Below are positions 1,268 through 62,262 of a stretch of DNA of 64,000 nucleotides, piece by piece. This DNA comes from a virus. The DNA lies in the IMG/VR virus record IMGVR_UViG_3300025030_000039, positions 188,878 to 252,877 of that record; one strand, written 5' to 3'. Under the pieces are notes generated by a model. It worked only from the letters and a program-made list of their open reading frames with translations, was not told the origin of the DNA and searched no databases. Numbering within the stretch: position 1 is the first letter of the stretch; every line of letters starts with the position of its first letter. Position numbers and translations under genes: made by a program.

Positions 1268-1361
1268 ATAATAAATATTTTAAATAAAGGTAAATATAAT
1301 AATTTAGATTCATAAATAAAAAAGGGAATCTTTATTCAAAATTCCCTTTAACTTTTTATTT

Positions 1362-1769
1362 TTACATAAAAGAAGATTGTGTTTCTTCTTTATCTATATT
1401 TTTATTTTTAATAATACTATTTATAATTTTTTTTTCTTCTAATTCTCTATTAGATTTTTTTCTAATACCATCAAAAGTTTGATATGGTGATACATCATCT
1501 CTTACTTTTCTATCTTTAGGATATTTATAATCTACATCTTTATGTGCATTAGAACTTCCACCTAATTTATCATCCCAAAACTTTTTAAAATCACTAAGGT
1601 TAGAATTAAAATATCTTATTTTACTTAAAATATCTTTATTTTCTAATCTAACATTTTCGTCTCCTTCTACTCTAAATTCTTCATATAATTTTTCAGTCTC
1701 TATTGCAGATAGACTATCTATAATCGACAATATGCGATTATAATCATTAAACTCAATTAGATTTTCCAT
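1362..1769 (-). CDS. hypothetical protein (135 aa)
   Basis: Track ORF, the last gene of the minus block before the divergent promoter region. Confidence 0.4.
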   Translation of the reverse strand: MENLIEFNDYNRILSIIDSLSAIETEKLYEEFRVEGDENVRLENKDILSKIRYFNSNLSDFKKFWDDKLGGSSNAHKDVDYKYPKDRKVRDDVSPYQTFDGIRKKSNRELEEKKIINSIIKNKNIDKEETQSSFM

Positions 1770-1780
1770 ATATTATTTTT

Positions 1781-1802
1781 AAAACTTTTTTATTATATTT
1801 AC
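1781..1802 (+). promoter_or_regulatory. conserved promoter-like motif, class A (AAAACTTTTTTATTATATTTAC), ~20 nt upstream of the ATG at 1823
   Basis: Near-identical 22-mers recur at 28761, 33451 and 43346, each 15-30 nt before the first ATG of a plus-strand gene run. This copy sits in the divergent intergenic region 1770-1822. Confidence 0.45.
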
Positions 1803-10989: not shown

Positions 10990-11066
10990 ATATTTAATTT
11001 TAATTATAGCAAATATAATTAATTAGTTTATAATTTAAAAATAATCCTTAATAATTTATAGCTTAT

Positions 11067-11636: not shown

Positions 11637-11814
11637 AAAATTTTAAATTTATTATTTTATGGAAAATTAATATTTTGTTTAAATAAAATTTAATTAATTT
11701 AATCTTTATTTCAACATTAAATATTTTTTTAATTTTTTTAACATTGATTGTCCTAAGGCATTCATATTTAATTAATTATATATTATTATTTATATATTTA
11801 TGTTAGCAACAATA

Positions 11815-12505: not shown

Positions 12506-12522
12506 AATTTTACTGTTTTTAT

Positions 12523-12549
12523 TTTACATACTTATAACAACAAATATAA
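12523..12549 (-). promoter_or_regulatory. promoter-like motif on the minus strand, early-block variant (TTTGTTGTTATAAGTATGTAAAAT)
   Basis: The reverse complement is TTTGTTGTTATAAGTATGTAAAAT, about 20 nt before the ATG at 12505. The same motif recurs at 12900-12928, 15146-15173 and 18110-18135, and is related to the plus-strand TTTGTTATTATATTTA motif. Confidence 0.4.
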
Positions 12550-12589
12550 AACATTGCTGATGTAGTTTCTATTTATATTATACGTTTAA

Positions 12590-12881: not shown

Positions 12882-12899
12882 ATTAATTAGTATTTTTAA

Positions 12900-12928
12900 T
12901 TTTACATATCTATAACAACAAATATAAG
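12900..12928 (-). promoter_or_regulatory. promoter-like motif on the minus strand (TTTGTTGTTATAGATATGTAAAAT)
   Basis: Same family as 12523-12549. It sits immediately upstream of the gene starting at 12881. Confidence 0.4.
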
Positions 12929-12998
12929 AAATAAATCTTACTTTGTCTATTTTTTAATGAAAAGATTTACTTCTCATATTTGCAACCGTTAGGCATAA

Positions 12999-14935: not shown

Positions 14936-15290
14936 ATTTATAAATTTATTAGTTATTACTATTAATTCCGAACTGAGTATATCTGAGTGTCGTTATATGC
15001 AATAAAAATTATTTTTTGGATATTTTATATAACATTATAAATCCTATTAAAAAGTGATGGATGTTGTACAATTTGCCATTTCTATCAACTTCGCTACAAA
15101 AATATCCAAATCCTATTACAAATGGCAAAATCTTTATATTCATAATTTTTACAGTTTATAACAACAAATATAAGCAATTATTTTCATTACTTCCAAAATA
15201 AATGTTGTTTGTTAATATTAATTTTGTTCTTTTAATTAAGTTTCTACTAATTTTACTCAAATGTATATACCTGCAGACGTTAGCTGCCAT

Positions 15291-18026: not shown

Positions 18027-18109
18027 ATATTTATTAAATAAAATTTTATTATTAAATTATATAACCAAAATTAATTATGTTTATAATTTAATCAATTTTT
18101 ATATTTTTA

Positions 18110-18135
18110 ATTTTACATACTTATAACAACTATTT
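18110..18135 (-). promoter_or_regulatory. promoter-like motif on the minus strand (TAGTTGTTATAAGTATGTAAAAT)
   Basis: Same family as 12523-12549. About 85 nt upstream of the gene starting at 18026. Confidence 0.35.
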
Positions 18136-18213
18136 TTACACTTAATCGTTAGTAACAATATAAAAATAAAGTTTGTAGAATAACCGATACAGACTCAATA
18201 TTATTAAAAGAAT

Positions 18214-20066: not shown

Positions 20067-20104
20067 TTAATTATATGGTTAATTATTATTATGTTTAATA
20101 AAAT

Positions 20105-20983: not shown

Positions 20984-21363
20984 AAAAATATTATTTGAAT
21001 ATATATTTGGAATTTTAATTTTATTTTAAACTTTTTTATTATATTTAAATTTAATAATATTTAGTTATATGAATCAAAATTTAAAAATATTAATAAAATG
21101 AGAACAATAAAGGCACAGAAGACTTAATTACTGGTATAATTATTGAAATGAAAAACGAAGACAACTTTGAAAGAAAAGCTGCACAGCGAATAATCGAAGC
21201 ACTAACAGATGAAAATAATTTGAATATACCCCCAGTTATCGTTTCAATTTGCGATGGTCTTTTGTTTGAATGTACTGATAGAGAAACAATACATAACGAA
21301 TGATGCGTTTATTCTCGTTGCCGTATTAGGAGCAGAAATTATTAACCATAAAATAAACACAAT

Positions 21364-21591: not shown

Positions 21592-21664
21592 CGGACGGCG
21601 GTTGGCTTTCGTTGCCGATGCTCGATTAACGACAAATGATTATTAATAGTAAAAATTTAAAATT

Positions 21665-21892: not shown

Positions 21893-21939
21893 ATGGTCAA
21901 TTAGTAGAAATTCCACGCTACGACCCTCTTTATTATTGT

Positions 21940-22006
21940 GGCTAACGGTTGCAAATATAAAACGTTGCAACATGAATGTAATTAAATGAAACAAAACTTG
22001 AAAAAA
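21940..22006 (+). repeat. ~65-bp element, inverted copy of 12590-12655; contains CTAACGGTTGC and GTTGCAAC
   Basis: GGCTAACGGTTGCAAATATAAAACGTTGCAACATGAATGTAATTAAATGAAACAAAACTTGAAA. It lies about 90 nt upstream of the RlmN-like gene. Confidence 0.55.
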
Positions 22007-22090
22007 TGCTCGAATAACCACGGATGCCCAACTGTTTTATACCATATGTTAGCGGTAGTGATTTTTTAACTTATTAATATTTAACGATTT

Positions 22091-22978: not shown

Positions 22979-23095
22979 CATAAATATATAAATAATAATA
23001 TATAATTAATTAAATATGAATGCCTTAGGACAATCAATGTTAATAAAATTTAAAAAATATTTAATGTTGAAAAATTATTTAATTTTATAAAATAA

Positions 23096-25445: not shown

Positions 25446-25579
25446 TTTAATTTTATTTTAAACATTGTAAATTGTATTTTATTTATTCACTTTTTTAAAA
25501 TAATTTTATAGGATATGCATAAAATGTTTTAATTATAAAAAATGTTCGGGTGATATATAAAAAAAATAATGTTTAAGTT

Positions 25580-27694: not shown

Positions 27695-28145
27695 AAAATA
27701 AAAATTATATAAAATCTAAACAATTTTTTACGGATTACTAATCACGGAATAAACTGTCAAAATTAATTAATTTCCATATAAATGAAAATACTATAAATTG
27801 TATAAAAACATTAAATGTAAATTATAAAGCTAGAAATAGCTGAATAATAAATTTATGATTAATAATCTTAATAACTACAAAAATTCTAATAACCACAAAA
27901 CAAATAAAGTTAATTACAAAACAAAATTAAAAATACGTTAATCTTTCTATTTTAAATTTTAATACCATTTTATTAAATTTAAGTAAATATAATAATTTTG
28001 TAAATATTAAAAAATATTTGAATATACATATTTTTAATGCATTGGGATTTTTTATTAACAATTTTGGCCGCCTATTGTTAATAAAAAAACTACAAAATTT
28101 ATAGAATTCTATATATAAATTATAATATAAATTACTTTAATTTTT

Positions 28146-28742
28146 ATGTTAGCAATAGCTCCACCTAATAAAAAAGAGATTATAAACTATTCTAATTGGT
28201 TAGAAAAAAGAAAAATACCTTTTCATATACTTAATGAATATGATAATATAAATAGTTATTCTATGCTTATGTTATGTGGAGGTCCTGATATAGGAAAAAA
28301 TAAATTAAGAGATGAATTAGAAATAAAATGGTTTAATGATGCTTATAGAAAAATTCCTGTAATTGGAATTTGTAGAGGATTACAATTAGTTAATATTATT
28401 CTTAATGGTACTCTTTATGAAGATTTATCTGATGAATTAATAATGCATTCGACTGATAAAAATTCTATTTCTAATGAACCTTCTTCAAATTTAAATTCAA
28501 GTTTTCATAATATTATATACAATAATTTTAAAATTGAAGTTAATTCTAGACATCATCAGGGAATTAAAGTATTAGGTGAAGGATTAAAACCTTTAGCATA
28601 TAGTGAAGGAGATAATTTAATAGAAATGATTAAAGGATTTAAATCTTTATTTGTACAATGGCACCCTGAAAGAGAAGAAGTATATGAAATGCCAGCAGAA
28701 AGAATCGTATCATTGTGGATAGAAAAGTTTATGTTACTTTAA
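28146..28742 (+). CDS. class I glutamine amidotransferase-like protein, peptidase C26 / gamma-glutamyl hydrolase type
   Basis: MLMLCGGPD, the GICRGLQ catalytic Cys elbow, SRHHQG and VQWHPE His/Glu motifs. Confidence 0.7.
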   Translation: MLAIAPPNKKEIINYSNWLEKRKIPFHILNEYDNINSYSMLMLCGGPDIGKNKLRDELEIKWFNDAYRKIPVIGICRGLQLVNIILNGTLYEDLSDELIMHSTDKNSISNEPSSNLNSSFHNIIYNNFKIEVNSRHHQGIKVLGEGLKPLAYSEGDNLIEMIKGFKSLFVQWHPEREEVYEMPAERIVSLWIEKFMLL

Positions 28743-28760
28743 TTCTAAATTTTTATTTTT

Positions 28761-28782
28761 AAAACTTTTTTATTATATTTAC
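28761..28782 (+). promoter_or_regulatory. class A promoter-like motif (AAAACTTTTTTATTATATTTAC)
   Basis: Identical core to 1781-1802. It sits 18 nt before the ATG at 28800. Confidence 0.45.
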
Positions 28783-33326: not shown

Positions 33327-33450
33327 AAGAATAAAATTTGAAATTTATATTTTTGAATTATATGTAAATTTAATAAAAAAGTTTAAAAAATAAAAAAATT
33401 TTAATACATTCTTTTTCAAAAAATTATTTGATAACTAATATTTTAAATTT

Positions 33451-33472
33451 AAAACTTTATTATTATATTTAC
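33451..33472 (+). promoter_or_regulatory. class A promoter-like motif (AAAACTTTATTATTATATTTAC)
   Basis: One mismatch to the 1781 and 28761 copies. It sits 20 nt before the ATG at 33493, at the start of the 33.5-40.3 kb plus run. Confidence 0.45.
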
Positions 33473-41675: not shown

Positions 41676-41840
41676 TTATTTATTAATTAATGCTTTTATA
41701 TCTTTATCTTTTATAAAATTCAAACCACCAATCTTTACAAAATTCAACACACCCTTTTCCTTCCAATTATATAAAGTCTGTCTAGTAACATTAAATTCTT
41801 TACATACCTTCGATAGTTTTAATAACTTAAAATCTTCCAT
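41676..41840 (-). CDS. 54-aa MerR-like HTH protein resembling the N-terminus of IS607 TnpA serine recombinase (catalytic domain absent)
   Basis: MEDFKLLKLSKVCKEFNVTRQTLYNWKEKGVLNFVKIGGLNFIKDKDIKALINK matches the IS607 TnpA N-terminal pattern (...TLRRWDREGKL...). Its stop lies 2 nt before the tnpB TTG, in a different frame. Confidence 0.55.
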   Translation of the reverse strand: MEDFKLLKLSKVCKEFNVTRQTLYNWKEKGVLNFVKIGGLNFIKDKDIKALINK

Positions 41841-41968
41841 TGCTTAAAATATTAATTTATTTTATATATCATCAAGCCTTTATAGTTTTATATAAAATTT
41901 AGTTATATTTTTAAATTAAAAACTTTAATATTATATTTAATTATTAAATTTATATAAATTATAACAAA

Positions 41969-43168: not shown

Positions 43169-43345
43169 AATGATTGAAATAGGAAAAATTTATACTTATA
43201 AGGATGGTAGATCTGTTATAGTTATACAAAAAAGTGATAAACAATTAAGAGCAGAAGTATCAGATGATATAGAAAACAAATGGAATCCATTTTGGATATA
43301 CTATTCTGATTTAATTTTTATACTTTAAATAAAATTTTTAAATTT

Positions 43346-43367
43346 AAAACTTTTTTATTATATTTAC
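43346..43367 (+). promoter_or_regulatory. class A promoter-like motif (AAAACTTTTTTATTATATTTAC)
   Basis: It sits about 30 nt before the ATG at 43399. Confidence 0.45.
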
Positions 43368-43740: not shown

Positions 43741-43970
43741 AAATATTATTTTTACTTTTAAGTATTATTATTTTAACATCTTGTAGTGTATCAACATCAA
43801 AAATTGATGCTAATAAATTTAATACTAATGATATTACATATATAGAAGATACTAGAACTGGTGTATGTTATGCTATAATAGCTGTTCAAAAAGGTGGAAA
43901 TTTTGAACAAAATGGAATTGGATTTACAGAAGTTCCTTGTGATAAAGTAAAAGAATATTTAAATAAATAA
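43737..43970 (+). CDS. lipoprotein (MKILFLLLSIIILTSCS)
   Basis: Signal peptide plus lipobox Cys. Confidence 0.45.
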   Translation: MKILFLLLSIIILTSCSVSTSKIDANKFNTNDITYIEDTRTGVCYAIIAVQKGGNFEQNGIGFTEVPCDKVKEYLNK

Positions 43971-44011
43971 ACAATATTTATTAATCTCATATAAATTTAA
44001 AATAATTACAT

Positions 44012-44452
44012 ATGAAAATTGCTAAAGGTCTTAAAATAAAAAATGAGTTAAAAATAAAATTATCTCATCTTCAATCTCTTTTAATACAACATAATTCTTC
44101 AATCGTTGGATCAACTAATGATTATAATACAGAAGAAGTATTAAAAGAATATATTGAGGTAAGAGATAAACTTATTTTACTTAAAACAAATTTACAAAAG
44201 GCTACTTTACCTATTTATCAAAAAATATTTCGTATTTCTGAATTGAAAGCTACAATTAAAGCGTTAAGAAGTATGAATACAATATCTGGTAAAACAGTTA
44301 ATTCTAGATATGGCGGTAGTGAAGTTATTGAAAATATAGCAACAATTGGTAACTTAGCTGTCGATAAAAAAGTTAAAGATATTGAATTTGAAATTTCAAA
44401 TTTACAAGATGAAATTGATGAATTCAACAATACTACTAATTTTGAATTTTAA
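44012..44452 (+). CDS. coiled-coil hypothetical protein (146 aa)
   Basis: Track ORF. Confidence 0.4.
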   Translation: MKIAKGLKIKNELKIKLSHLQSLLIQHNSSIVGSTNDYNTEEVLKEYIEVRDKLILLKTNLQKATLPIYQKIFRISELKATIKALRSMNTISGKTVNSRYGGSEVIENIATIGNLAVDKKVKDIEFEISNLQDEIDEFNNTTNFEF

Positions 44453-44677
44453 TTTATTATTGGTATAGGGAACAGCGAAAGTGATTAATTATTACATTAC
44501 CCAGCAAGGTAAAACTTAAATTCTGACATTTAGATAACGTTAAAGATAATGAATTCAAAATTTATTCTTTATAATTCAAATATTCAAAATTTAAAATTTA
44601 AAAATCATCTTTGTAAATTTTAATTATTATTAGCTGTTTCCGTTTTTAAAACAAATAAATATATAAATAATAAAATA

Positions 44678-44922
44678 ATGAACAAGATACAGCGATGGAG
44701 TTATCCAAAAGTGTATACTAAATTAAATTTATTGGCTGAGGAAGAAGGTTTCTTTATTAAGCAGGTGAATCCAGCATATACTAGTCAGACTTGTTCAGAA
44801 TGCGGGGAATATAGATAAAGAGAGTCCGTAAAGGTGAGGTTTATTTATGTTCGAGCTGTAAAATAGAGATTAATACAGCATTGAATATTTTGCATAGAGG
44901 AGTATATGGTCCCTCTAATTAA
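44678..44922 (+). pseudogene. tnpB: degraded C-terminal fragment of a second TnpB (retains the zinc finger and RuvC-III motif, with an in-frame stop and a frameshift)
   Basis: Reading across one stop and one frame change gives ...IQRWSYPKVYTKLNLLAEEEGFFIKQVNPAYTSQTCSECG(EYR*) then ...RKGEVYLCSSCKIEINTALNILHRG. This holds the canonical TnpB VNPAYTSQTCSxCG and NxAxNIL.RG motifs. Confidence 0.65.
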
Positions 44923-44985
44923 AAATAATTATAATAAATACAAATTATGCGATTTAAAATATCAAATACTGGCAAAGGAGCATTC

Positions 44986-45016
44986 CTTTTTTCTGTCTCG
45001 TAAAGAAACAGAAAAA
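44986..45016 (+). other. imperfect palindrome / hairpin downstream of the TnpB remnant (TTTTTTCTGTCTCG-TAAA-GAAACAGAAAAA)
   Basis: Seen directly in the sequence. It could be a relic right-end or omega-RNA scaffold, or a terminator. Confidence 0.3.
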
Positions 45017-45026
45017 TAAATGCTTT

Positions 45027-45518
45027 ATGGGAAAAACTTACATTCATATTCAAAAAGCTAAACATGGTTTGGCTTATATTGAATTTAATGATTATTTAGA
45101 ATTAAATAATGAATATTATGAGAAACTAGATCAAATTTATGATTCATTTGGATTGTATTCTAAATATTTACGACATTGTCATAGAAGTGGGGAAACAGAT
45201 TGGTTATTTACAACTCGTATTAAAAAACGAAATAAGATTGCTAATAAAGATATGCAATCACAGTTGAATGATTATTATGGAATTGAAGAAAAGAATTTAA
45301 ACAAATTTAGAGATAAATCACTCAAAGTATTTCAACTTAAAAAGAAATATGGTATACCATCATCTTATAGTTATTTTACTTTTAGTAAAAAATTCTCAAC
45401 ATTTAAAGGAGCTTTAAGAGCTGGAAAATCATCTATTAAAAATAATAGATATTTTGAATTTGAAATATTAGAAAATAATAAAATAATTTATAAAGAAAAT
45501 AAAAATGGAAGAAATTGA
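45027..45518 (+). CDS. hypothetical protein (163 aa)
   Basis: Track ORF. Confidence 0.45.
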   Translation: MGKTYIHIQKAKHGLAYIEFNDYLELNNEYYEKLDQIYDSFGLYSKYLRHCHRSGETDWLFTTRIKKRNKIANKDMQSQLNDYYGIEEKNLNKFRDKSLKVFQLKKKYGIPSSYSYFTFSKKFSTFKGALRAGKSSIKNNRYFEFEILENNKIIYKENKNGRN

Positions 45519-47312: not shown

Positions 47313-47321
47313 ATTTTAAAA

Positions 47322-47368
47322 TTACTTTAAATCTTATTTTTATTTTAAACCCTTTGTTATTATATTTA
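47322..47368 (+). repeat. 47-bp direct repeat, copy 1, containing a class B promoter-like motif (CCTTTGTTATTATATTTA)
   Basis: Identical to 47984-48030 (TTACTTTAAATCTTATTTTTATTTTAAACCCTTTGTTATTATATTTA). Confidence 0.6.
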
Positions 47369-47388
47369 TTTTAAATAATAATAATTAT

Positions 47389-47958: not shown

Positions 47959-47983
47959 GTAAGAAAATAATATCGATTATTAA

Positions 47984-48030
47984 TTACTTTAAATCTTATT
48001 TTTATTTTAAACCCTTTGTTATTATATTTA
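47984..48030 (+). repeat. 47-bp direct repeat, copy 2, containing a class B promoter-like motif
   Basis: Identical to 47322-47368. It sits about 28 nt before the ATG at 48056. Confidence 0.6.
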
Positions 48031-48055
48031 CCTATAATTATTAAAATAAATTTTT

Positions 48056-51482: not shown

Positions 51483-51749
51483 TTATACAAACTTTAAAAT
51501 AGTATTGTAAAATTCTATTTAAAATATTTTTTTCTTAAAATATTTGTTAATATATTTATTTAATAATTAATATTAATACAATAACATGGTACATTCATAT
51601 AAAAATTACAAATCTAGTTTAAAGATAAGTATTAAAAATAATAAATCCAATACTTAATTAAAAACAATATTACCGATTTTTATATTAATATCTTTGTTAT
51701 TAAATTTACCTATTAATTTAAAATATTTATTAACTTTAATTTTTTAATC

Positions 51750-52631
51750 ATGTCAAACAAAAACAAGCAAACTGGTGCAAAAAAGAATTTAAACGAAAAT
51801 GATAATTCTGATGCCCAAACTGTTGCTACTGATGTAGTTAACAATGTAGAAAACAAAGAAGAAGCTGTCGAAAATAACGAAGAAGTTGTTGTAGAAGATA
51901 TGCAAATTCCTGAAATTCCTACTGCTGAAAAAGCAAAGAAAAGAATTATTAAACCTTTAGTAAAAGGTATTGGTTTTAATGATTTTGGAACATGGTTCAC
52001 TCGTCCACGAAAAGATGGTGATAAAGATGTTAATGGAAAAGATATTCCAACAGACAGAGTATTTGTTCTTTCATTAGAGCCACATGACATCGCTAAAATG
52101 GATTTACCTGCAGCTCCACTTATTTATGATCCAGCAGGAAAAGATGATTCCGGTAATGCTATTTTAATTGCTTACAAAGTTCCTCAATTCAGAAATTCTG
52201 AAGGTGGTGTAGCGTTCAAAAATGCTGAAAACAAAACAGAAACTCATCATCAGTATAAACAAATTACTACTTTAGTAGAAGATTTGAACGAAACTACTGA
52301 AGTAAGAAGAGGCTGGGTTGGTTATACTAAACTTCCACTTTCTCAAACTGATTTGGAAACTATCGCAAAAGAAAAAGAAGTTAAAGAAGCAGCAGCTAAA
52401 AAGAAAGCTGAAGAAGCAGCAGCCAAAAAAGTAGAAAGAGAAGCAGCAGCTAAAAAGAAAGCCGAAGAAGCAGCAGCTAAAAAGGAAGAAGCCGATAAAA
52501 AAGCAGCAGTAGATGCAATTAACAAAGCTCAAGCTGCAACACAAACTGAAGGTCAGAGTGTTGAAAATCCTGAAGTAGCTATTGATGGTGCTCCAGCAAA
52601 AGTAAAGAAAAATCAAGAAGCAACTGTATAG
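51750..52631 (+). CDS. Ala/Lys/Glu-rich protein with an internal 9-aa (27-bp) tandem repeat; GC-richer than its surroundings
   Basis: Track ORF with four tandem EAAAKKKAE-type units at 52386-52493. The antisense track ORFs here are artefacts of the repeat. Confidence 0.55.
   Translation: MSNKNKQTGAKKNLNENDNSDAQTVATDVVNNVENKEEAVENNEEVVVEDMQIPEIPTAEKAKKRIIKPLVKGIGFNDFGTWFTRPRKDGDKDVNGKDIPTDRVFVLSLEPHDIAKMDLPAAPLIYDPAGKDDSGNAILIAYKVPQFRNSEGGVAFKNAENKTETHHQYKQITTLVEDLNETTEVRRGWVGYTKLPLSQTDLETIAKEKEVKEAAAKKKAEEAAAKKVEREAAAKKKAEEAAAKKEEADKKAAVDAINKAQAATQTEGQSVENPEVAIDGAPAKVKKNQEATV
52386..52493 (+). repeat. 4 x 27-bp tandem repeat (GAAGCAGCAGCTAAAAAGAAAGCTGAA), coding
   Basis: Four consecutive 27-mers with 1-5 substitutions each. 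Confidence 0.8.
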
Positions 52632-52648: not shown

Positions 52649-52679
52649 AAAAGAGGAATATTAATATTCCTCTTTTTTT
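52649..52679 (+). terminator. rho-independent terminator (AAAGAGGAATATT-A-AATATTCCTCTTT then TTTTTG)
   Basis: Perfect 13-bp stem followed by a U-run, 18 nt after the stop at 52631. Confidence 0.65.
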
Positions 52680-52785
52680 GTTTACATTTTGGACCAGTCT
52701 TTTCAATTAAAATAATTAAATTTTACCGGTAAAACTTATTAACATTTACAAAAAATTAATGTTAATAAATTTATTTTTTGCATTA

Positions 52786-52810
52786 AATATTTGTTATTAT
52801 TTTTATATTA
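52786..52810 (+). promoter_or_regulatory. class C promoter-like motif (AATATTTGTTATTATTTTTATATTA) upstream of the sigma factor gene
   Basis: A ~30-bp block identical to 53723-53747. It sits about 40 nt before the ATG at 52852. Confidence 0.45.
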
Positions 52811-52851
52811 ATAAAATTAAATAATACAATAAACTAAAAAATTACAAAGCT

Positions 52852-53685
52852 ATGGATTTAAGTTATGACCGCAGAATTTTACTAAATTATTCGAAAGAAA
52901 TAGAAAAAAGATTATTAACACAAGCAGAGGAAATTGAATGCTCATACATTATTCAAAATTCTCAACCTTGTGATCCAAGAAGAATTAGTGCTATTCAAAA
53001 ACTCGTAAAACATAATTTACGATATGGATTATCAGTTGCAAAACAATATCAGAATCAGGGACTCCCCTTACCTGATTTAATTAATGAAGCAAGTATTGGA
53101 TTAATCAAAGCAGCTGAACGATTTGATTATAGTACACATAAAACTAAATTTATAACATGTGCTGTTTCATGGATAAAACAATGCATCAAAGATGCACTAT
53201 GTGAACACGCAAGAACTGTAAGATTACCTAGACAGATTCATAATTATAAAAATGAATTTGAAAAACTTAAAAATAAACAAATAGCTGCAAATGGAGTTTA
53301 TGATATTGAAACAATTGCAGAAGAAATGATTGTACCAAAAAGAATAGTACATGATTTAGAAAAAATAACTCAATTTGGTGTATCATTAGATGAACCTGTA
53401 ATGGGAGAAGATGATGGACAAAGAACAAGATTAGATACTTATATTCCCGAATCTGAAAAAAATAATGATGAAAATGAAGATATCAAAAGAAAAATAAAAT
53501 ATGGATTGTCATTTTTAAAAGAAAGAGATCAAAATATTATGAAAGATGCATATGGTATAGATAGAGAATATGCATTAAGTATTGAAGATGTCGCAATAAA
53601 ACATGATTTAACTGAAGTAATGATTAGAAAAATAATGAGAGATTCATTAGATATGTTAAAATATCTTATTAATAAGAAAAAATAA
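52852..53685 (+). CDS. sigma-70 family RNA polymerase sigma factor
   Basis: Region 2 is unmistakable: LVKHNLRYGLSVAKQYQNQGLPLPDLINEASIGLIKAAERFDYSTHKTKFITCAVSWIKQCIKDAL...ARTVRLP. A region 4-like HTH (LSIEDVAIKHDLTEVMIRKIMRDSLDMLK) sits at the C-terminus. Confidence 0.85.
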   Translation: MDLSYDRRILLNYSKEIEKRLLTQAEEIECSYIIQNSQPCDPRRISAIQKLVKHNLRYGLSVAKQYQNQGLPLPDLINEASIGLIKAAERFDYSTHKTKFITCAVSWIKQCIKDALCEHARTVRLPRQIHNYKNEFEKLKNKQIAANGVYDIETIAEEMIVPKRIVHDLEKITQFGVSLDEPVMGEDDGQRTRLDTYIPESEKNNDENEDIKRKIKYGLSFLKERDQNIMKDAYGIDREYALSIEDVAIKHDLTEVMIRKIMRDSLDMLKYLINKKK

Positions 53686-53722
53686 TCTTTTTTAAGTAAG
53701 AATAAATAATTTTATCTTATAA

Positions 53723-53747
53723 ATATTTGTTATTATTTTTATATTAA
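53723..53747 (+). promoter_or_regulatory. class C promoter-like motif, second copy
   Basis: Identical to 52786-52810. It sits 15 nt before the ATG at 53763. Confidence 0.45.
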
Positions 53748-53762: not shown

Positions 53763-53960
53763 ATGTTTCCTACTAATTTTAAAAACAAAAAGATATCAAT
53801 AATATTTAAAATATTATTTTTTATTTCTATATTTGTAACTATAAGTTATAGAATCATAATGCCTGAATTTATAATAATATCAAATGATATCTATTTATGG
53901 TTATTTTGTTTAACTTCAATAACATTATTTTTTATAACATACTCATTTAAAACAAATTAA
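53763..53960 (+). CDS. small membrane protein (two TM segments)
   Basis: Track ORF, hydrophobic. Confidence 0.35.
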   Translation: MFPTNFKNKKISIIFKILFFISIFVTISYRIIMPEFIIISNDIYLWLFCLTSITLFFITYSFKTN

Positions 53961-54476: not shown

Positions 54477-54674
54477 CTGTAATTTTTTATAATCAAAATT
54501 ATTTTGATAACAGGATATTTTTATAATAGGGATATTAAAAATTTAATCCCTTTGTATATTCCGGTAATACTTGGTATACGCGATATTCAGGATAATAATA
54601 CCTTATATCCAATAATTACATTAACCCTAGTTAAATATTGTATAAAAATACTTTAGATAAAAATTTTTATTTTT

Positions 54675-54695
54675 AAACCTTTGTTATTAAATTTA
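54675..54695 (+). promoter_or_regulatory. class B promoter-like motif (AAACCTTTGTTATTAAATTTA) with no protein-coding gene downstream
   Basis: Same family as 47347 and 48009. The next ~430 nt lack any ORF longer than 25 codons. Confidence 0.4.
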
Positions 54696-54699
54696 TAAA

Positions 54700-55032
54700 A
54701 TTAAAAATTATAAAATAGTTCATTGAAATGAAACATTTGTGATCCTAACGGTTGGTATTTTAATATAATAAGTATTAAAATATGATACAATATGAAAATA
54801 TTGGACAGTGCGAAACTGAATGAGTTAGGCAATATAAACATCAAATTGATTTTGCTGTGGATGAATATTGAAGCTGTTGACTGTCATGAAAAGATAAATG
54901 ATAAAAATTGCTTACACACCTAATTGTAATATTGGGTATGATTTTTAATTTTTAATAATTATCGCTAAAGTGTAAATGTTCCATATACTATGTATTAAGG
55001 TCGTTTAGCGATAGTTATTTTTATTAATTTTG
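54700..55032 (+). ncRNA. candidate non-coding RNA (~330 nt) between a promoter-like motif and a hairpin/T-run
   Basis: An ORF-free interval bounded upstream by the class B motif. Downstream is a 10-bp perfect inverted repeat, TATCGCTAAA (54960-54969) and TTTAGCGATA (55004-55013), followed by TTATTTTTATTAATTTT. It contains a CCTAACGGTTGG operator-like motif at 54744-54755. Confidence 0.3.
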
Positions 55033-55127: not shown

Positions 55128-55502
55128 ATGGAAAAATTAAAAGATCTGGAAAAATTAAAAGATTTTATAACAGAAGATGATTTGAATAAATTTAAAGAAG
55201 GTGTAATTGAAACAGCAAGAGAAAATCTTAGAAGAGATAAACAATTATTACCTATTATTCATTTTTTATTCATTAAAGATAATAAATTAGCAGTTGCATT
55301 AATGCCAGTAAATGATTTTATGATTAATGATCAAACAAAAGATATAATGGTTCACTTAGTTAAAAAAACTATTGATGAATTTAATGTATTTGCATTAATT
55401 ATGATACAAGAAGCATGGCTCAGTTCTATTAATATTAATGAAAAAGATACATATCAAGGAAGGCCTTCAGAAGATCCAAATCGTAATTTTCAAATATGCT
55501 AA
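55128..55502 (+). CDS. hypothetical protein (124 aa)
   Basis: Track ORF. Confidence 0.4.
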   Translation: MEKLKDLEKLKDFITEDDLNKFKEGVIETARENLRRDKQLLPIIHFLFIKDNKLAVALMPVNDFMINDQTKDIMVHLVKKTIDEFNVFALIMIQEAWLSSININEKDTYQGRPSEDPNRNFQIC

Positions 55503-55551
55503 AACAAAATCCTGGATTAAATTAAATACTTTAAAATTTATTTTTATCTTT

Positions 55552-55573
55552 GGCCTTTTGTTATTATATTTAT
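55552..55573 (+). promoter_or_regulatory. class B promoter-like motif (GGCCTTTTGTTATTATATTTAT)
   Basis: It sits about 28 nt before the ATG at 55602. Confidence 0.45.
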
Positions 55574-55601: not shown

Positions 55602-56540
55602 ATGCCAAAGATATTAATGAATTTGGAACAAGCTTTAGATGTATTTAAACATATAATAGCAATAACTGGAGATCAAAATTTTCATTTAGCAGGATCAGCA
55701 AGAAGAGGTAAAAAAGAAAATTTAAAAGATTTAGATATAATCTATTTAGGAGATGAAATTCCTGATATAGAAAATGCTATTTATGTTGCAGATGGACCAT
55801 CATTAAAAAGAATTAAATTAAGATATGAATTTTCAAAAGGAATATTTGATTATGTTTCTATGGATATTCATATTGCGAATAAATTAAATTTCGGTTCTAC
55901 TCTTTTATATTTTACAGGTTCTCGGGAATTTAATATTAATATGAGAAAAAATGCTATGTCTAAAGGATGGAAACTCAATAGACATGGATTGTTTAATCAA
56001 AATAATGAATTAATAGCGGCTGAAAATGAAATAGATATTTTTTCAGCATTAGAAATTCCTTTTGTTAATCCTGTAGATAGAACAATATTTAAATCTGAAC
56101 AAGATGAAGAAAATCAAAAATTAATAAATACTATACGTCAATTAGCAATATTTCATGCTATTGAAGGTGATCATTATCGATCATCAGCATATTTTAAAGC
56201 ATCTTCATCATTACAAGAAATTGGTAATATCAAAAAATCAAAAGAAAATAACGAACTTATTTGTATAGATAATGTTGGAAATTCAATAGCAGCTAAAATC
56301 ATCGAATTTTTTGATACGGGTAAAATACATAAATTAGAAAAATTAAAAGAAACATATCCAGTTGATGTAGAAGGATTATTAAGTTTAGAAGGAGTTGGAT
56401 ACAAAAGCTTATTTAAATTTTATAAATTATTAGGAATAGAAACACTTGATGATTTAAAGAAAGCATGTAAAGAAAATAAAATAGCAAATCTTCAAGGATT
56501 TGGATTATCATCTCAAGAAAAAATATTAAATCAACTATGA
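55602..56540 (+). CDS. DNA polymerase X-like protein with apparently permuted domain order (palm and thumb first, then 8-kDa/HhH fingers)
   Basis: The N-terminal half has the Pol-beta motifs HLAGSARRGKKENLKDLDII (GS.RRG...D.D), LLYFTGSREFNINMRKNAMSKGWKLNRHGLF and ENEIDIFSALEIPFVNP. The C-terminal half holds IDNVGNSIAAKIIEFFDTGKIHKLEKL and LEGVGYKSLFKFYKLLGIETLDDL, helix-hairpin-helix motifs like the Pol-beta 8-kDa and fingers domains. Confidence 0.65.
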   Translation: MPKILMNLEQALDVFKHIIAITGDQNFHLAGSARRGKKENLKDLDIIYLGDEIPDIENAIYVADGPSLKRIKLRYEFSKGIFDYVSMDIHIANKLNFGSTLLYFTGSREFNINMRKNAMSKGWKLNRHGLFNQNNELIAAENEIDIFSALEIPFVNPVDRTIFKSEQDEENQKLINTIRQLAIFHAIEGDHYRSSAYFKASSSLQEIGNIKKSKENNELICIDNVGNSIAAKIIEFFDTGKIHKLEKLKETYPVDVEGLLSLEGVGYKSLFKFYKLLGIETLDDLKKACKENKIANLQGFGLSSQEKILNQL

Positions 56541-59109: not shown

Positions 59110-59181
59110 ATACTTTAAATAAAATTTTTTCTATAATTTAAAAGTTATTATATTTATATAACGATTAAATAATTATAAAAT

Positions 59182-59958
59182 ATGCTAATAGATTTAACTT
59201 TAAAATGTAACGAACAATGTACTCATTGTATGGTAGATGCTCTTCCGACAGGTAAACATATGGAAGAAAAAACATTCATAGATTTATGTGGTTTCTTATT
59301 TATAATTAAACCTCCTATTGTTCAAATAAGCGGTGGTGAATTTACTCTTCATACTAATTTTTATGAGTATATTCAAAGATTAACTAATATGCTTCCAGAA
59401 AGTATGTTTTTACTTGAAAGCAATGGTTCATTTATAAATGATAAAGATAAAGTCAAAAAATTAAAAGATTTATTATCTATAAAAAATGTATATGGGCTTC
59501 AAATTAGAACTCATGAAAAATACTATCCAAACTTTGAAAATACAATGAAGAATCAAATGATTTTAAAATCATTACATCCTAAAGTTATGTTTTTCTCAGA
59601 TGGTATAGATGAGTTAGTTCCTATAGGAAGAGCAAAAACTAATTATCCAGATAACATAGCAACTAGAAGACCTCAGTGTTCAAATGTATTTTTATTAATT
59701 AAACAACCTGCTGCTAAAATAACTTCATTTAAAGAATTAATATTTACGTTACAAAGAAATGGAATATTCTGTAAACCTATGATTGATATCGAAGGAAATA
59801 TTAGAGCTGGTGAAACTCCATTTTGTCAAAAGTTTGGACATATTACCGATTCTTTAGATACTTTGTTCAATAATATTAAGAAAAGTGTACCGTGTGATGC
59901 TTGCGGATTAGTTAAAAATTACAAGCCTATAGAAAAATCTATTATATTCTCAGTTTAA
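59182..59958 (+). CDS. radical SAM protein (small, 4Fe-4S CX3CX2C plus SGGE motif), with extra C-terminal Cys residues
   Basis: LTLKCNEQCTHC is CX3CX2C. The QISGGEFTLH glycine-rich SAM-binding motif is typical of the activating-enzyme/QueE-like radical SAM subfamily. Five more Cys lie in the C-terminal third, ending in CDACG. Confidence 0.65.
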   Translation: MLIDLTLKCNEQCTHCMVDALPTGKHMEEKTFIDLCGFLFIIKPPIVQISGGEFTLHTNFYEYIQRLTNMLPESMFLLESNGSFINDKDKVKKLKDLLSIKNVYGLQIRTHEKYYPNFENTMKNQMILKSLHPKVMFFSDGIDELVPIGRAKTNYPDNIATRRPQCSNVFLLIKQPAAKITSFKELIFTLQRNGIFCKPMIDIEGNIRAGETPFCQKFGHITDSLDTLFNNIKKSVPCDACGLVKNYKPIEKSIIFSV

Positions 59959-59994
59959 GTTTAATTAAATACTTTATTAAACATTTTTAAATCT

Positions 59995-60016
59995 GGTCCT
60001 TTGTTATTAAATTTAT
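59995..60016 (+). promoter_or_regulatory. class B promoter-like motif (GGTCCTTTGTTATTAAATTTAT)
   Basis: It sits about 60 nt before the ATG at 60077. Confidence 0.4.
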
Positions 60017-61501: not shown

Positions 61502-61813
61502 ATGATTAAAGTAGATAGCATAGTTATTATTCAATATCTTAATAATAACTTTATTCAAACTAAAAAAATTATATCTACAGAACATTTATTATTTGTAAAA
61601 GCAAATTATAAAACATACATTTCACTTCCAAAAAAAGAACAAGACAAATTCAAAAGAGAAAATAAAATTGAATTAGAACCTTATTATGAAATTCCTGAAG
61701 TATCGCCAATGGGATCACCTATGATGAATTCTAAAATTGGCGATATTTGTGAAATGTATTTATCTGAAAATCAAGGAGGATATCATTACTTTAAAATCTT
61801 AAATATACAATGA
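61502..61813 (+). CDS. hypothetical protein (103 aa)
   Basis: Track ORF. Confidence 0.4.
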   Translation: MIKVDSIVIIQYLNNNFIQTKKIISTEHLLFVKANYKTYISLPKKEQDKFKRENKIELEPYYEIPEVSPMGSPMMNSKIGDICEMYLSENQGGYHYFKILNIQ

Positions 61814-62262
61814 AAACTTTATTATTAGATATAGATTATACAATGGCTCACGAACAGGAGCCAAGACCATTCTTAAAAGAATTTTTACTCACATTAAAAG
61901 AACAATACAACTTAGTTATTTATACAGGAGGTACTTCTAGTAGAGTAACAGACTTTCTAAGAATACTTTATCATAAATTAGAAATAAAAGATAGAGAATT
62001 TATACATGATTTACAAATTACAGCATTACATAGAGGTAATTGTGATTTAATTGAATATCCTACTTCTAGCTGTTCTTCAATTTATATTAAATGCTTAAAG
62101 AAAGCATCTGAAATATTAAATATTCCAGTTGAAGATCTTACTCTTATTGATGATACAGTTCATTGTGAAGACCCTTATATTAAACAAATTATTCAGGCTG
62201 AAGGATTCTATGGACAAGAAAATGATGATTATTTACAAAGACTTTTAAAACAATTAATATGA
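61810..62262 (+). CDS. HAD-superfamily phosphatase-like protein
   Basis: LLLDIDYTM is the DxDxT motif I. VIYTGGTSS is the motif II Ser/Thr. LIDDT is the motif IV DD. Confidence 0.55.
   Translation: MKTLLLDIDYTMAHEQEPRPFLKEFLLTLKEQYNLVIYTGGTSSRVTDFLRILYHKLEIKDREFIHDLQITALHRGNCDLIEYPTSSCSSIYIKCLKKASEILNIPVEDLTLIDDTVHCEDPYIKQIIQAEGFYGQENDDYLQRLLKQLI

What the first reader, a model, noticed from the sequence alone, without database searches (positions are those of the whole stretch)
52786..53747. Phage sigma-70-family factor preceded by its own variant of a window-wide promoter-like motif family
A bona fide sigma factor (regions 2 and 4 recognisable) sits between two identical ~30-bp elements (AATATTTGTTATTATTTTTATATTA) just upstream of itself and of the next gene. 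The same core (TTTGTT[A/G]TTATA..T.TA) recurs 15-60 nt upstream of many genes in three sequence flavours. Class A is AAAACTTTTTTATTATATTTAC (1781, 28761, 33451, 43346, 41918). Class B is CCTTTGTTATTA[T/A]ATTTA (47347, 48009, 54675, 55552, 59995). Class C is 52786 and 53723. Minus-strand early-block variants TTTGTTGTTATAAGTATGTAAAAT lie at 12523, 12900, 15146 and 18110. The core resembles an extended -10 (TGnTATTAT) and not a TTGACA/TATAAT pair. The flavours may correspond to temporal classes, one of them read by the phage sigma.
Basis: partly seen in the sequence, partly recalled or inferred. Interest (0 to 1): 0.6.

Follow-up and report, generated by a model that had tools for sequence, protein, structure and literature searches.

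The report
Giant-phage sigma factor and promoter families
The window comes from a 462-kb uncultured phage, probably of a Bacteroidota host; the flagged gene is one of four phage sigma factors, and the repeated AT-rich elements are real promoter-like signals that resemble that phylum's -33/-7 promoters, an interesting but not unprecedented case of a phage running its own transcription programme.

Summary
ORF 52852-53685 is a sigma-70-family protein. Its nearest relatives (35-41% identity) are the short primary sigma factors of Bacteroidales/Prevotella.

An identical 28-mer lies upstream of this gene and upstream of the next gene. It occurs nowhere else in the genome.

The window is part of LR756500.1, an unannotated 462,018-bp phage genome. 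A position matrix finds 67 sites genome-wide, and 63 of them fall in the 9% of the genome that is intergenic (P about 6e-61). The sites point at the downstream gene, a median of 27 nt from it. They also precede tRNA and tmRNA genes and are conserved at orthologous loci of a diverged relative.

The element runs about -50 to -4: [TACTTTA] - TTTTTA - (A)AC - TTTn - TTAT - TAWATTTA. Its geometry fits the Bacteroidota -33/-7 promoter, but both consensus G's are missing. The extended -10 reading fits less well.

Classes A and B occupy different gene blocks. Class C is a unique pair. The minus-strand variants are a separate small family.

Which sigma reads which class is unresolved.

The parts
52852..53685 (+). 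Sigma-1: sigma-70-family protein of 277 aa, RpoD/sigma-AB-like. It has regions 1.2 to 4.2 and no region 1.1.
   Evidence: The best homologues are 286-288-aa primary sigma factors of Bacteroidales/Prevotella at 35-41% identity. Its DNA-reading residues are changed: Y430C, W433S, R584E, E585V, R586M, Q589K.
52649..52676 (+). Intrinsic-terminator-like hairpin of 12 pairs followed by a T-run. It closes the preceding gene and insulates the sigma-1 transcription unit.
52760..52811 (+). Class C element, copy 1, ending 40 nt before the sigma-1 ATG. The core TTATTATTTTTA is at 52794-52805. The 28-mer identical to copy 2 is at 52784-52811. TTTTTG occupies the -33 position and there is no TACTTTA box.
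   Evidence: matrix score 23.3, just above threshold.
53696..53747 (+). Class C element, copy 2, ending 15 nt before the ATG of the 65-aa ORF 53763-53960.
47323..47369 (+). Class B promoter-like element: TACTTTA-N7-ATTTTTA-N4-AAACCCTTTG-TTATTATATTTA.
47985..48031 (+). Class B element, 49 nt identical to the copy at 47323.
51513..51559 (+). Class B-like element without an exact TACTTTA box.
51663..51709 (+). Class B element upstream of ORF 51750-52631.
54650..54696 (+). Class B element. The next called gene is a 43-aa ORF at 54792-54923.
55527..55573 (+). Class B element upstream of the PolX-like gene 55602-56540.
59111..59157 (+). Class B-like element with the TACTTTA box. It was found by the 12-mer seed but scores below the matrix threshold. 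It lies upstream of the radical-SAM gene 59182-59958.
59970..60016 (+). Class B element.
1290..1336 (-). Class A element, preceded by a hairpin and T-run.
1756..1802 (+). Class A element (ATTTTTAAAACTTTTTTATTATATTTAC), divergent from the copy at 1290-1336.
11009..11055 (-). Class A variant with G at -5 (TAATTATATTTGC).
21002..21048 (+). Class A element.
27983..28029 (-). Weak class A-like hit lying inside a doubtful 44-aa ORF.
28736..28782 (+). Class A core combined with an upstream (T)ACTTTA box: a hybrid of A and B.
33364..33410 (-). Class A element, the minus-strand half of a divergent promoter pair.
33426..33472 (+). Class A element, the plus-strand half of the divergent pair.
41894..41940 (+). 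Class A element.
43321..43367 (+). Class A core with a TACTTTA box. It has the highest matrix score in the genome (42.0).
12513..12554 (-). E-family element TGTTTTATATTTGTTGTTATAAGTATGTAAAAT. It contains TATATTTG, an exact match to the host-type -7 consensus.
12891..12932 (-). E-family element.
15137..15178 (-). E-family element.
18102..18143 (-). E-family element that lacks the TATATTTG part.
25552..25562 (+). L1-family element (tGATATATAAAA), 17 nt before the ATG of the 483-aa gene 25580-27031. Elsewhere in the genome this family precedes the tail sheath and prohead protease genes.
41860..41870 (-). L1-family element upstream of the 54-aa HTH-like ORF 41676-41840.
43969..43995 (+). L2-family element (AAAC-N15-CATATAAA), 16 nt before the ATG at 44012.
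20070..20096 (-). L2-family element (AAAC-N15-CATATAAT), 3 nt before the ATG of the 478-aa gene 18630-20066.
11654..11680 (-). L2-family element upstream of gene 11067-11636.

Best explanation
The repeated elements are the promoters of a 462-kb phage that has no RNA polymerase of its own. It uses the host core enzyme together with sigma-70-family factors.

The host probably belongs to the Bacteroidota. The genome has no Shine-Dalgarno sequences, it is A-rich at -3 and -13..-10 upstream of starts, and the two RpoD-like phage sigmas (sigma-1 and sigma-2) derive from that phylum's short primary sigma.

Each A/B/C element is one continuous signal from about -50 to -4:
- an optional TACTTTA box at -50..-44;
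- TTTTTA at -35..-30;
- an invariant C at -21, followed by TTT;
- TTAT;
- the box TAWATTTA at -12..-5.
This is the geometry of the Bacteroidota -33/-7 promoter (TTTG, N19-21, TAnnTTTG), with both consensus G's replaced. Transcription would start 3-5 nt after the box.

Class B has the TACTTTA box, G at -17 and T at -4. It drives one plus-strand block of about 45 kb of small orphan genes, which includes sigma-1. Class A has C at -4 and drives other blocks, including tRNAs, tmRNA, auxiliary-metabolism genes, sigma-2 and sigma-3. Two other families, L2 (GAAAC-N15-CATATAAT) and L1 (tGATATATAAtAAA), precede genes in the replication and structural region.

Sigma-1 is a separate, terminator-insulated, single-gene unit behind a unique variant of class B (class C).

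My preferred mechanism is as follows. The A/B/C family is readable by the host holoenzyme early in infection, and this is how the phage sigma genes are first expressed. The phage sigmas, whose DNA-reading residues are re-tooled, then redirect the core enzyme to the non-host-like families (L1, L2, possibly others).

Shown: the sites, their statistics, anatomy, block distribution and conservation, and the identity and substitutions of the sigmas.
Inferred: promoter function, the start-site position, the host phylum, and above all which sigma reads which class.
For: Promoter nature:
- 63 of 67 matrix hits are intergenic (P 6e-61). 56 of 63 lie within 130 nt upstream of a same-strand gene, at a median of 27 nt.
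- Sites also precede non-coding genes: the tmRNA (34 nt), tRNA-Asn (26 nt) and an intron-containing tRNA (4 nt). This rules out a purely translational role.
- Many sites directly follow a hairpin with a T-run.
- Two contigs from one metagenome (L061, L068) each carry several strong sites. L068 is syntenic with the phage at 38-62% protein identity. In both contigs the core is kept upstream of an orthologous gene: the tmRNA in L061 and the gene at 73.1-74.56 kb in L068.

Start-site constraint: genuine start codons lie 3-5 nt after the box. For gene 36521-36835 the next in-frame ATG is at codon 70; genes 115658-115885 and 19710-20333 behave likewise. So TAWATTTA, and not a downstream TATAAT, is the -10-like element.

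Bacteroidota-type grammar:
- T-12, A-11, T-8, T-7 and T-6 are kept, the T/A-variable position falls on an 'n' of the consensus, and TTTT lies exactly 19 nt upstream (compared with PMC6847099).
- There are no Shine-Dalgarno sequences, and A is enriched at -3 and at -13..-10 (PMC6847099).
- The nearest relatives of sigma-1 and sigma-2 are the approximately 287-aa primary sigmas of this group.

No phage RNA polymerase: the large ORFs I screened (about 30, by Pfam) include none; two of the three largest were also compared with PDB. The replication module is T4-like (PolB, UvsW-like helicase, RNR, ThyX). This is the 'group 2' jumbo-phage pattern, which relies on sigma factors (PMC7824862).

Host-readable family:
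- Sigma-1 (class C), sigma-2 (class A site at 78735) and sigma-3 (class A site at 20339) all sit behind this family.
- The relative keeps class A, yet no orthologue of sigma-1 or sigma-2 above 42% identity exists among 5.8 billion proteins.

Re-tooled phage sigmas: positions invariant in 178 bacterial homologues (Y430, W433, Q437, E585, R586, Q589) are changed in sigma-1 (C, S, -, V, M, K) and in sigma-2 (-, -, N, -, T, I).

L1 precedes the tail sheath and prohead protease genes.
Against: - No transcription start has been mapped, and the phage is uncultured.
- The host-type consensus requires G at -5, which is nearly invariant in Flavobacterium (PMC6847099). Here 59 of the 67 sites have A at -5, and the -33 element also lacks its G. 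Such a systematic departure is what one would expect if a phage sigma, not the host sigma, reads these sites.
- Exact host-type boxes (TAHHTTTG) are hardly enriched between genes (1.4-fold), so no obvious alternative set of early promoters exists apart from the small E family.
- The host phylum is inferred, not shown. A few of sigma-2's homologues carry non-Bacteroidota labels.
- My gene calls come from a simple home-made caller, although they agree with the database calls around sigma-1.
Confidence: 0.5

Rival explanations
1. The flavours are temporal classes and at least one is read by the phage sigma. For example, host sigma reads class B (early); sigma-1, made from the B block, reads class A; or sigma-1 reads its own class C and so autoregulates. 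The loss of both consensus G's would make these promoters specific to a phage sigma.
For: - A replaces the nearly invariant G at -5 in 59 of 67 sites, and the -33 G is absent as well (PMC6847099).
- Sigma-1 and sigma-2 have altered region 2.4 and 4.2 recognition residues.
- Classes A and B differ at positions that sigma regions 3.0 and 1.2 normally contact (-17 and -4) and in an upstream box, and they occupy separate gene blocks.
- Class C is unique to sigma-1 and its neighbour.
Against: - There is a bootstrapping problem. Sigma-1, sigma-2 and sigma-3 all lie behind A/C-type elements, so some member of the family must work without them.
- A, B and C share the same -33/-7 core, so a single reader is the simpler assumption.
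- No sigma-1 or sigma-2 orthologue was found, although a relative keeps class A.
- With four phage sigmas and two clearly non-host-like families (L1, L2), there are better candidate targets for them.
Confidence: 0.3
2. The elements are E. coli-style extended -10 promoters (TGnTATTAT) with no -35 element. The rest of the conserved sequence would be spacer or UP-element-like context.
For: In class B and class C, TG sits exactly one base upstream of TATTAT. The start-site constraint, no more than 4 nt after the box, is also compatible with a start 7 nt after TATTAT. The E family has TGTTATAAG / TGTTATAGT in the same arrangement.
Against: - Class A, about 40 sites, has T or A in place of the G.
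- The hexamer's last position, T-7, which is the most conserved along with A-11 in such promoters, would be the one T/A-variable position.
- Residues H455/E458, which read TG, are absent from sigma-1, sigma-2 and all 178 bacterial homologues.
- A sigma-70 consensus scan gives chance-level counts.
- The downstream ATTTA is as conserved as the supposed hexamer.
Confidence: 0.12
3. The elements are not promoters. They would be intergenic repeats spread by duplication or recombination, RNA-level signals (processing or translation sites), or promoters for an unrecognised phage-encoded polymerase.
For: Some pairs are nearly identical over 49 nt (47320-47369 and 47982-48031), which looks like recent copying. 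Several giant ORFs (1801, 1527 and 1501 aa) have no recognisable domains, and a 421-aa ORF carries a DFDGD motif.
Against: - The orientation is strict and the distance to starts narrow.
- The elements also precede tRNA and tmRNA genes.
- There is no inverted-repeat or mobile-element anatomy.
- The core is conserved at orthologous loci of a relative whose coding sequence has diverged to about 50% protein identity.
- The variable distance to the ATG (1-60 nt) argues against a translation signal.
- The phage encodes four sigma factors and has a T4-like replication module, which points to use of the host core polymerase.
Confidence: 0.06

Closest known systems
Bacteroidota primary-sigma promoters (-33 TTTG / -7 TAnnTTTG, read by sigma-AB)
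   Same: The box TAWATTTA keeps T-12, A-11, T-8, T-7 and T-6. The variable base falls on an 'n' of the consensus. A T-run sits 19 nt upstream, where TTTG would be. The inferred start is 3-5 nt after the box. Genes lack Shine-Dalgarno sequences. Sigma-1 and sigma-2 are short, lack region 1.1 and are derived from sigma-AB (PMC6847099, PMC9723704).
   Different: The nearly invariant G at -5 is A in 59 of 67 sites, and the -33 G is missing. The conserved sequence is far longer (-50 to -4), with an invariant C at -21 and an optional TACTTTA box. Exact host-type boxes are not enriched in the phage.
Phage sigma cascades: Bacillus phage SPO1 (gp28, then gp33/34) and T4 (early, middle, late with gp55). 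From my own knowledge.
   Same: The phage encodes its own sigma-family proteins. Several promoter families are segregated by gene block and function. The sigma genes lie behind the family most similar to the host consensus. The L1 element (GATATATAAtAAA) before structural genes resembles the T4 late promoter TATAAATA.
   Different: There are four sigma-family proteins, two RpoD-like and two small r2+r4 types. The host grammar is Bacteroidota-type. No timing data exist and no class-to-sigma assignment has been made.
RpoD-like sigma factors of 'group 2' jumbo phages and huge phages (PMC7824862, PMC7162821)
   Same: The genome has a T4-like replication module (PolB, UvsW-like helicase), no phage RNA polymerase, and phage sigmas close to cellular RpoD that were probably acquired from hosts.
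   Different: Sigma-1 is a singleton with no relative above 41% identity. It has lost Y430 and W433, aromatic residues invariant in 176 and 178 of 178 bacterial homologues. To my knowledge no promoter sets have been described for such phages of Bacteroidota.
T4 middle promoters (MotA box TGCTTtA at -30, with sigma appropriation by AsiA). From my own knowledge.
   Same: The class B upstream box TACTTTA matches the MotA box at 6 of 7 positions and sits at a fixed distance from the -10-like box.
   Different: The box is centred at -47, not -30, and the -33 region is still conserved. No MotA or AsiA homologue appeared among the 20 B-block proteins screened with Pfam or PHROGs.

Membership tests
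Sigma-70 family (sigma-1, window 52852-53685) | Region 2 domain (core binding and -10 recognition) | tested here: met
   Pfam PF04542 at 39.1 bits, above the cut-off of 24.
Sigma-70 family (sigma-1) | Regions 3 and 4 (helix-turn-helix of region 4.2) | tested here: met
   Pfam region 4 scores only 19.6 bits, below the 24.1 cut-off, and region 3 is not reported. However, the RpoD_Cterm profile is matched over positions 1-228 of 238 at 6.6e-40, and PDB SigA/RpoD chains align up to residue 275.
Housekeeping RpoD orthologue (group 1) | Reaches the curated equivalog score; keeps the promoter-melting aromatics Y430/W433 and the -35-reading R584/E585/Q589 | tested here: not met
   137 bits against a cut-off of 354. 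Changes are Y430C, W433S, R584E, E585V and Q589K, whereas 176-178 of 178 homologues keep Y, W, E and Q.
Bacteroidota sigma-AB-type primary sigma | Short (about 285 aa), no region 1.1, nearest relatives in that group | tested here: met
   277 aa. The alignment starts at region 1.2. The best hits are 286-288-aa RpoD/SigA of Bacteroidales and Prevotella at 35-41% identity.
Bacteroidota sigma-AB-type primary sigma | Conserved DNA-recognition residues of regions 2.3-2.4 and 4.2 | tested here: not met
   Sigma-1 is a diverged paralogue, not a copy with host specificity.
Bacteroidota -33/-7 promoter | T-12, A-11, T-8, T-7 and T-6 of the -7 box | tested here: met
   The consensus TAWATTTA is seen in all 67 matrix sites, and the most variable position coincides with an 'n' of the consensus.
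Bacteroidota -33/-7 promoter | G at -5 | tested here: not met
   59 of the 67 sites have A at -5 and only a few have G.
Bacteroidota -33/-7 promoter | TTTG located 19-21 nt upstream of the box | tested here: inconclusive
   A conserved TTTT(T)A lies at exactly 19 nt, but without the G. The sigma-1 copy does have TTTTTG there.
Bacteroidota -33/-7 promoter | Transcription start 4-5 nt after the box | not testable with these tools
   Only an upper bound is available. Genuine start codons and a tRNA 5' end lie 3-5 nt after the box.
Extended -10 promoter (TGnTATAAT) | TG one base upstream of the hexamer, an invariant T at -7, and TG-reading sigma residues | tested here: not met
   G is present only in classes B and C. 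The would-be T-7 is the T/A-variable base. H455/E458 are absent. The sigma-70 consensus scan gives chance-level counts.
T4-type middle promoter (MotA box) | Box centred at -30 replacing the -35 element, with MotA and AsiA proteins | tested here: not met
   The box lies at -50..-44. No such proteins appeared among the 20 neighbours screened. The proteome was not searched exhaustively.
Phage sigma cascade | Phage sigma genes plus distinct promoter families tied to gene blocks | tested here: met
   Four sigma-family genes. Families A, B/C, L1, L2 and E show block-specific distribution.
Phage sigma cascade | Each class shown to depend on a given sigma and to fire at a given time | not testable with these tools
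   The phage is uncultured and no expression data are available.

The most novel reading that the evidence does not exclude
The phage runs a programme with five readers and five promoter classes: host sigma plus four phage sigmas, acting on families E, A, B/C, L1 and L2. It has deliberately re-coded the Bacteroidota promoter grammar, with G-to-A at -5 and no G at -33, so that most of its promoters are invisible to the host sigma. Those promoters would be read by its own sigma-AB paralogues. One of these, sigma-1, works without the two promoter-melting aromatics (Y430, W433) that are invariant or nearly so in 178 bacterial homologues, and so relies on the extreme AT-richness of TAWATTTA for strand opening.
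Probability: 0.2. Interest if true: 0.65.

Novelty: new member of a known kind. Interest (0 to 1): 0.45.

Why it matters
Almost nothing is known about how giant phages of Bacteroidota organise transcription; work so far concerns crAss-like phages, which carry their own polymerase.

This genome offers a compact, testable system:
- about 120 predicted promoters in four to five families;
- four phage sigma factors;
- a clear comparison with the host's unusual -33/-7 grammar.

If the assignments were worked out, they would show which sigma residues read the G at -5 and the -33 element in sigma-AB-type factors. They would also provide orthogonal promoter and sigma pairs for engineering Bacteroidota.

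As it stands, the finding is a well-supported new example of a classical strategy, phage promoter classes combined with phage sigmas. It is not a new principle.

Tried and rejected
- **Exact-pattern scans for relatives.** I scanned IMG/VR and the metagenome collection with class B and class A patterns. Nearly all hits were single chance matches in AT-rich contigs. Only L061/L045, L068 and L071 proved related.
- **Rfam.** A scan of the whole window at gathering thresholds found nothing. The GC-richer block at 12-23 kb, which has low coding potential, remains unexplained.
- **Sigma-70 consensus promoter scan.** Counts were at chance level.
- **Downstream TATAAT as the real -10 element of class A, with AAAC as its -35.** I rejected this because genuine start codons lie 3-5 nt after the TAWATTTA box. 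The AAAC-N15-CATATAAT pattern does, however, define a separate family, L2.
- **Host-type TAHHTTTG boxes as the main promoter set.** Rejected: enrichment between genes is only 1.4-fold.
- **A phage-encoded RNA polymerase.** No Pfam or PDB hits for the giant ORFs tested. One DFDGD motif occurs in a 421-aa ORF with no family match.
- **Neighbours of sigma-1.** Screened with Pfam and PHROGs for anti-sigma or MotA-like factors; all are orphans.
- **Defining sites from the upstream half alone,** to obtain an unbiased logo of the core. This was too unspecific to be useful, although the same core consensus re-emerged.
- **Alternative genetic codes.** Tested and not needed.
Full report
**Source of the window**

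The window is a piece of GenBank LR756500.1, 'uncultured phage', 462,018 bp, with no annotation. I fetched the whole genome. The window corresponds to genome positions 388,074 onward. It differs from the record only by a 124-bp deletion at window position 55486/55487.

The genome is 23% G+C and uses the standard genetic code. A simple gene caller of my own gave 685 genes covering 91% of the genome. These calls agree with the database calls around the sigma gene.

ORF 52852-53685 is a sigma-70-family protein:
- Pfam region 2 at 6.6e-10 and region 4 at 6.6e-4.
- NCBIfam RpoD_Cterm at 6.6e-40 over almost the whole profile, although far below every curated equivalog cut-off.
- Alignment to SigA/RpoD structures over residues 13-275.

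The identity extends to 28 nt. No third copy exists in the genome.

**The motif family is real and far from chance**

I started from the 12-mer TTATTATATTTA and built a 45-nt position matrix. I refined it with a threshold set above the best score in three shuffled genomes.
- This gives 67 sites, and 63 lie in the 9% of the genome that is intergenic (binomial P 6e-61).
- Of the 63, 56 lie within 130 nt upstream of a same-strand start codon or stable-RNA gene, at a median of 27 nt.
- Sites chosen on the 12-mer alone already show conserved upstream sequence (ATTTTTA ... AAAC TTT), so the long signal is not an artefact of selection.
- The window holds 18 matrix hits plus two sub-threshold copies.

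**Anatomy of the element**

I number the box TAWATTTA as -12 to -5. On that numbering the element reads:
- TTTTTA at -35..-30;
- (A)A(A/C)C ending in a nearly invariant C at -21;
- TTT at -20..-18;
- a class-specific base at -17;
- TTAT;
- TAWATTTA;
- a class-specific base at -4.

Class B has G at -17, usually T at -4, and a TACTTTA box fixed at -50..-44 in 14-16 sites. Class A has T or A at -17 and C at -4, often followed by ATA. A few sites are hybrids, for example window 28736-28782 and 43321-43367.

Class C is a class B core with one substitution (A-9 to T). It lacks the TACTTTA box, and copy 1 has TTTTTG at the -33 position.

**Distribution by gene block**

Class B is confined to one plus-strand block running from genome 435 kb across the record ends to about 8 kb. 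This block holds dense, small, mostly orphan genes, including sigma-1.

Class A lies mainly on the minus strand at 20-122 kb. That region holds about 25 tRNAs, a tmRNA, and PARP, NAPRTase, kinase and vault-like genes, together with sigma-2 and sigma-3. Class A also occurs at 359-431 kb.

**Evidence that these are promoters**

1. They precede stable-RNA genes as well as ORFs. The tmRNA lies 34 nt downstream of a site and tRNA-Asn 26 nt. An intron-containing tRNA has its 5' end 4 nt after a class A-like box.
2. Many directly follow a hairpin with a T-run. One example is the terminator at 52649-52676 in front of sigma-1.
3. They are conserved in a diverged relative.
 - Two contigs from one metagenome (L061, L068) each carry several strong sites.
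 - L068 is syntenic with genome 69.8-75.4 kb at 38-62% protein identity.
 - The core is retained upstream of the orthologous gene in L068 and upstream of the orthologous tmRNA in L061.

**Where transcription must start**

Several genes begin 3-5 nt after the box, and their start codons are credible. For gene 36521-36835 the next in-frame ATG is at codon 70. The start site therefore lies no more than about 4 nt after the A at -5. This identifies TAWATTTA, and not the TATAAT-like sequence that often follows it, as the -10-like element.

**Which promoter grammar?**

I think a Bacteroidota-type -33/-7 promoter fits better, for three reasons.
- **Translation signals.** The genome has essentially no Shine-Dalgarno sequences: fewer than 2% of starts have GGAG or GAGG. 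It shows A enrichment at -3 and at -13..-10, as described for this phylum (PMC6847099).
- **Sigma ancestry.** The nearest relatives of sigma-1 are 286-288-aa primary sigma factors of Bacteroidales and Prevotella, which lack region 1.1. Sigma-2 behaves likewise.
- **Motif geometry.** The host consensus has T-12, A-11, T-8, T-7, T-6 and G-5 nearly invariant, with the start 4-5 nt after the G (PMC6847099). The phage box keeps five of those six. Its one variable base falls on an 'n' of the consensus. A T-run sits exactly 19 nt upstream, where TTTG would be.

Under the extended -10 reading, three things fit badly. The hexamer's key T-7 would be the variable base. Class A would lack the TG. And the TG-reading residues H455/E458 are missing from the phage sigmas and from all 178 homologues examined.

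The fit to the Bacteroidota grammar is not perfect either. G-5 is replaced by A in 59 of 67 sites, and the -33 G is absent. Exact host-type boxes are barely enriched between genes.

Genome-wide there are two more families.
- L2, (C/T)GAAAC-N15-cATATAAT: 30 hits, 26 of them intergenic.
- L1, tGATATATAAtAAA: 23 hits, 20 of them intergenic.

Both families lie mainly in the 122-360 kb region. That region holds the T4-like replication genes (PolB, UvsW-like helicase, RNR, ThyX) and the structural genes. L1 precedes the tail sheath and prohead protease genes. Both families also occur in the window.

The minus-strand 'early block' elements belong to a separate family of about nine members, TGTTTTATA-N4-TTGTTATrG. 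It shares only TTGTTAT with class B. Three of the window's four copies contain an exact host-type box, TATATTTG.

**Four sigma genes**

The phage encodes four sigma-family proteins:
- sigma-1 (window 52852-53685, 277 aa);
- sigma-2 (genome 75544-76380, 278 aa, RpoD-like);
- sigma-3 (genome 18327-18872, 181 aa; regions 2 and 4);
- sigma-4 (genome 145446-146207, 253 aa; ECF-type regions 2 and 4_2).

No RNA polymerase subunit was found among the large ORFs tested. This matches the 'group 2' jumbo-phage pattern, in which phage sigma factors recruit host core enzyme (PMC7824862).

**Sigma residues**

I compared the phage sigmas with 178 bacterial homologues, in which Y430, W433, Q437, E585, R586 and Q589 are invariant or nearly so.
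- Sigma-1 carries C430, S433, E584, V585, M586 and K589.
- Sigma-2 keeps Y430 and W433 but carries N437, G584, T586 and I589.

Neither is a copy of the host factor with unchanged specificity. The loss in sigma-1 of both aromatics that capture and wedge the -11 base is unusual and unexplained.

**How it most likely works**

I am confident (about 0.85) that the A/B/C elements are promoters used by host core polymerase with a sigma-AB-type factor.

Which factor is unresolved. I lean (about 0.5) to the host sigma, for four reasons:
- Sigma-1, sigma-2 and sigma-3 all lie behind A/C-type elements, so the family must be readable before phage sigmas exist.
- The three flavours share one core.
- The relative keeps class A, while no orthologue of sigma-1 or sigma-2 is detectable.
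- L1 and L2 are the families that truly depart from host grammar.

On this view the flavour-specific features (the TACTTTA box, -17 and -4) modulate strength or timing, possibly through additional factors.

**Novelty**

Phage-encoded RpoD-like sigmas in jumbo and huge phages are known (PMC7824862, PMC7162821), and phage promoter classes are classical. This is a new, well-delineated member of that kind. The points of interest are the Bacteroidota-type grammar, the four sigmas and the odd sigma-1.

Noticed in passing
window 55486/55487, inside ORF 55128-55502: The window lacks 124 bp that GenBank LR756500.1 carries at genome 443560-443683. With the extra bases the ORF is 173 aa instead of 124 aa. 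This is either a strain or assembly variant, or an edit.
   Followed up: partly
genome (L001-L003): 75544-76380 (-), 18327-18872 (-), 145446-146207 (-): Three further sigma-70-family genes lie outside the window. One is RpoD-like (278 aa). Two are small region 2 + region 4 types (181 and 253 aa, phrog_1740; the 253-aa one has ECF-type Pfam domains).
   Followed up: yes
L1 is tGATATATAAtAAA, which precedes structural genes genome-wide and resembles the T4 late promoter. L2 is GAAAC-N15-CATATAAT.
   Followed up: partly
window 12000-23000: A G+C-richer block (27-30%) with many short ORFs of very low coding score, and with the E-family elements. Rfam finds nothing. Whether these are tiny early genes or non-coding RNAs is open.
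   Followed up: partly
window 23158-23571: Four to six tandem 69-nt (23-aa) repeats inside ORF 23096-23746, with the peptide motif ..N.LTSIPKEIG.., which looks leucine-rich-repeat-like.
   Followed up: no
window 52345-52521: 27-nt tandem repeats encoding an (AAAKKxEE)n low-complexity tract at the C-terminus of the 293-aa orphan protein just upstream of sigma-1.
   Followed up: no
window about 44678-44818 (L107 1827-1967): A 46-aa called ORF in the otherwise empty gap 44452-45027 has a precomputed Pfam hit to Cas12f1-like_TNB (a TnpB/Cas12f zinc-finger fragment).
   Followed up: no
L003 10652-10909 (genome 110652-110909, minus strand): A tRNA with anticodon CUA, an amber suppressor that ARAGORN calls 'Pyl'. 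Immediately upstream of it lies a tRNA split by an intron of roughly 130 nt. The 5' end of the split tRNA lies 4 nt after a class A-like box.
   Followed up: partly
L002/L003 (genome 61-119 kb): About 25 tRNA genes and a tmRNA (tag GNNAEMRMAA), several of them directly behind class A or L2 elements.
   Followed up: partly
L006 (genome 255-280 kb): Replication and nucleotide-metabolism genes are broken up by selfish elements: inteins in RNR and ThyX, and DUF7487/REase-like insertions next to a split family B DNA polymerase.
   Followed up: no
window about 54548-54575 and genome 5453; genome-wide TTACTAGAGGTACAAACTTT: Two other intergenic repeats unrelated to the promoter families. CCTTTGTATATTCCGG(T)nATACTTGG has two copies. 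A 20-mer is present eight times between genes and never in genes.
   Followed up: no
L061, L045, L068 (contigs Ga0114923_10000431, Ga0209976_10009886, Ga0114923_10000174): Fragments of a related phage. L068 is syntenic with this genome at 38-62% protein identity. The fragments use the same class A promoter core and carry their own tRNA and tmRNA cluster. They are useful for phylogenetic footprinting.
   Followed up: partly
window 55602-56540, 59182-59958, 61810-62262: The few recognisable genes of the class B block: a PolX-like protein (DNA polymerase beta thumb plus HhH domains), a radical-SAM protein, and a NIF/CTD-phosphatase-like protein.
   Followed up: no
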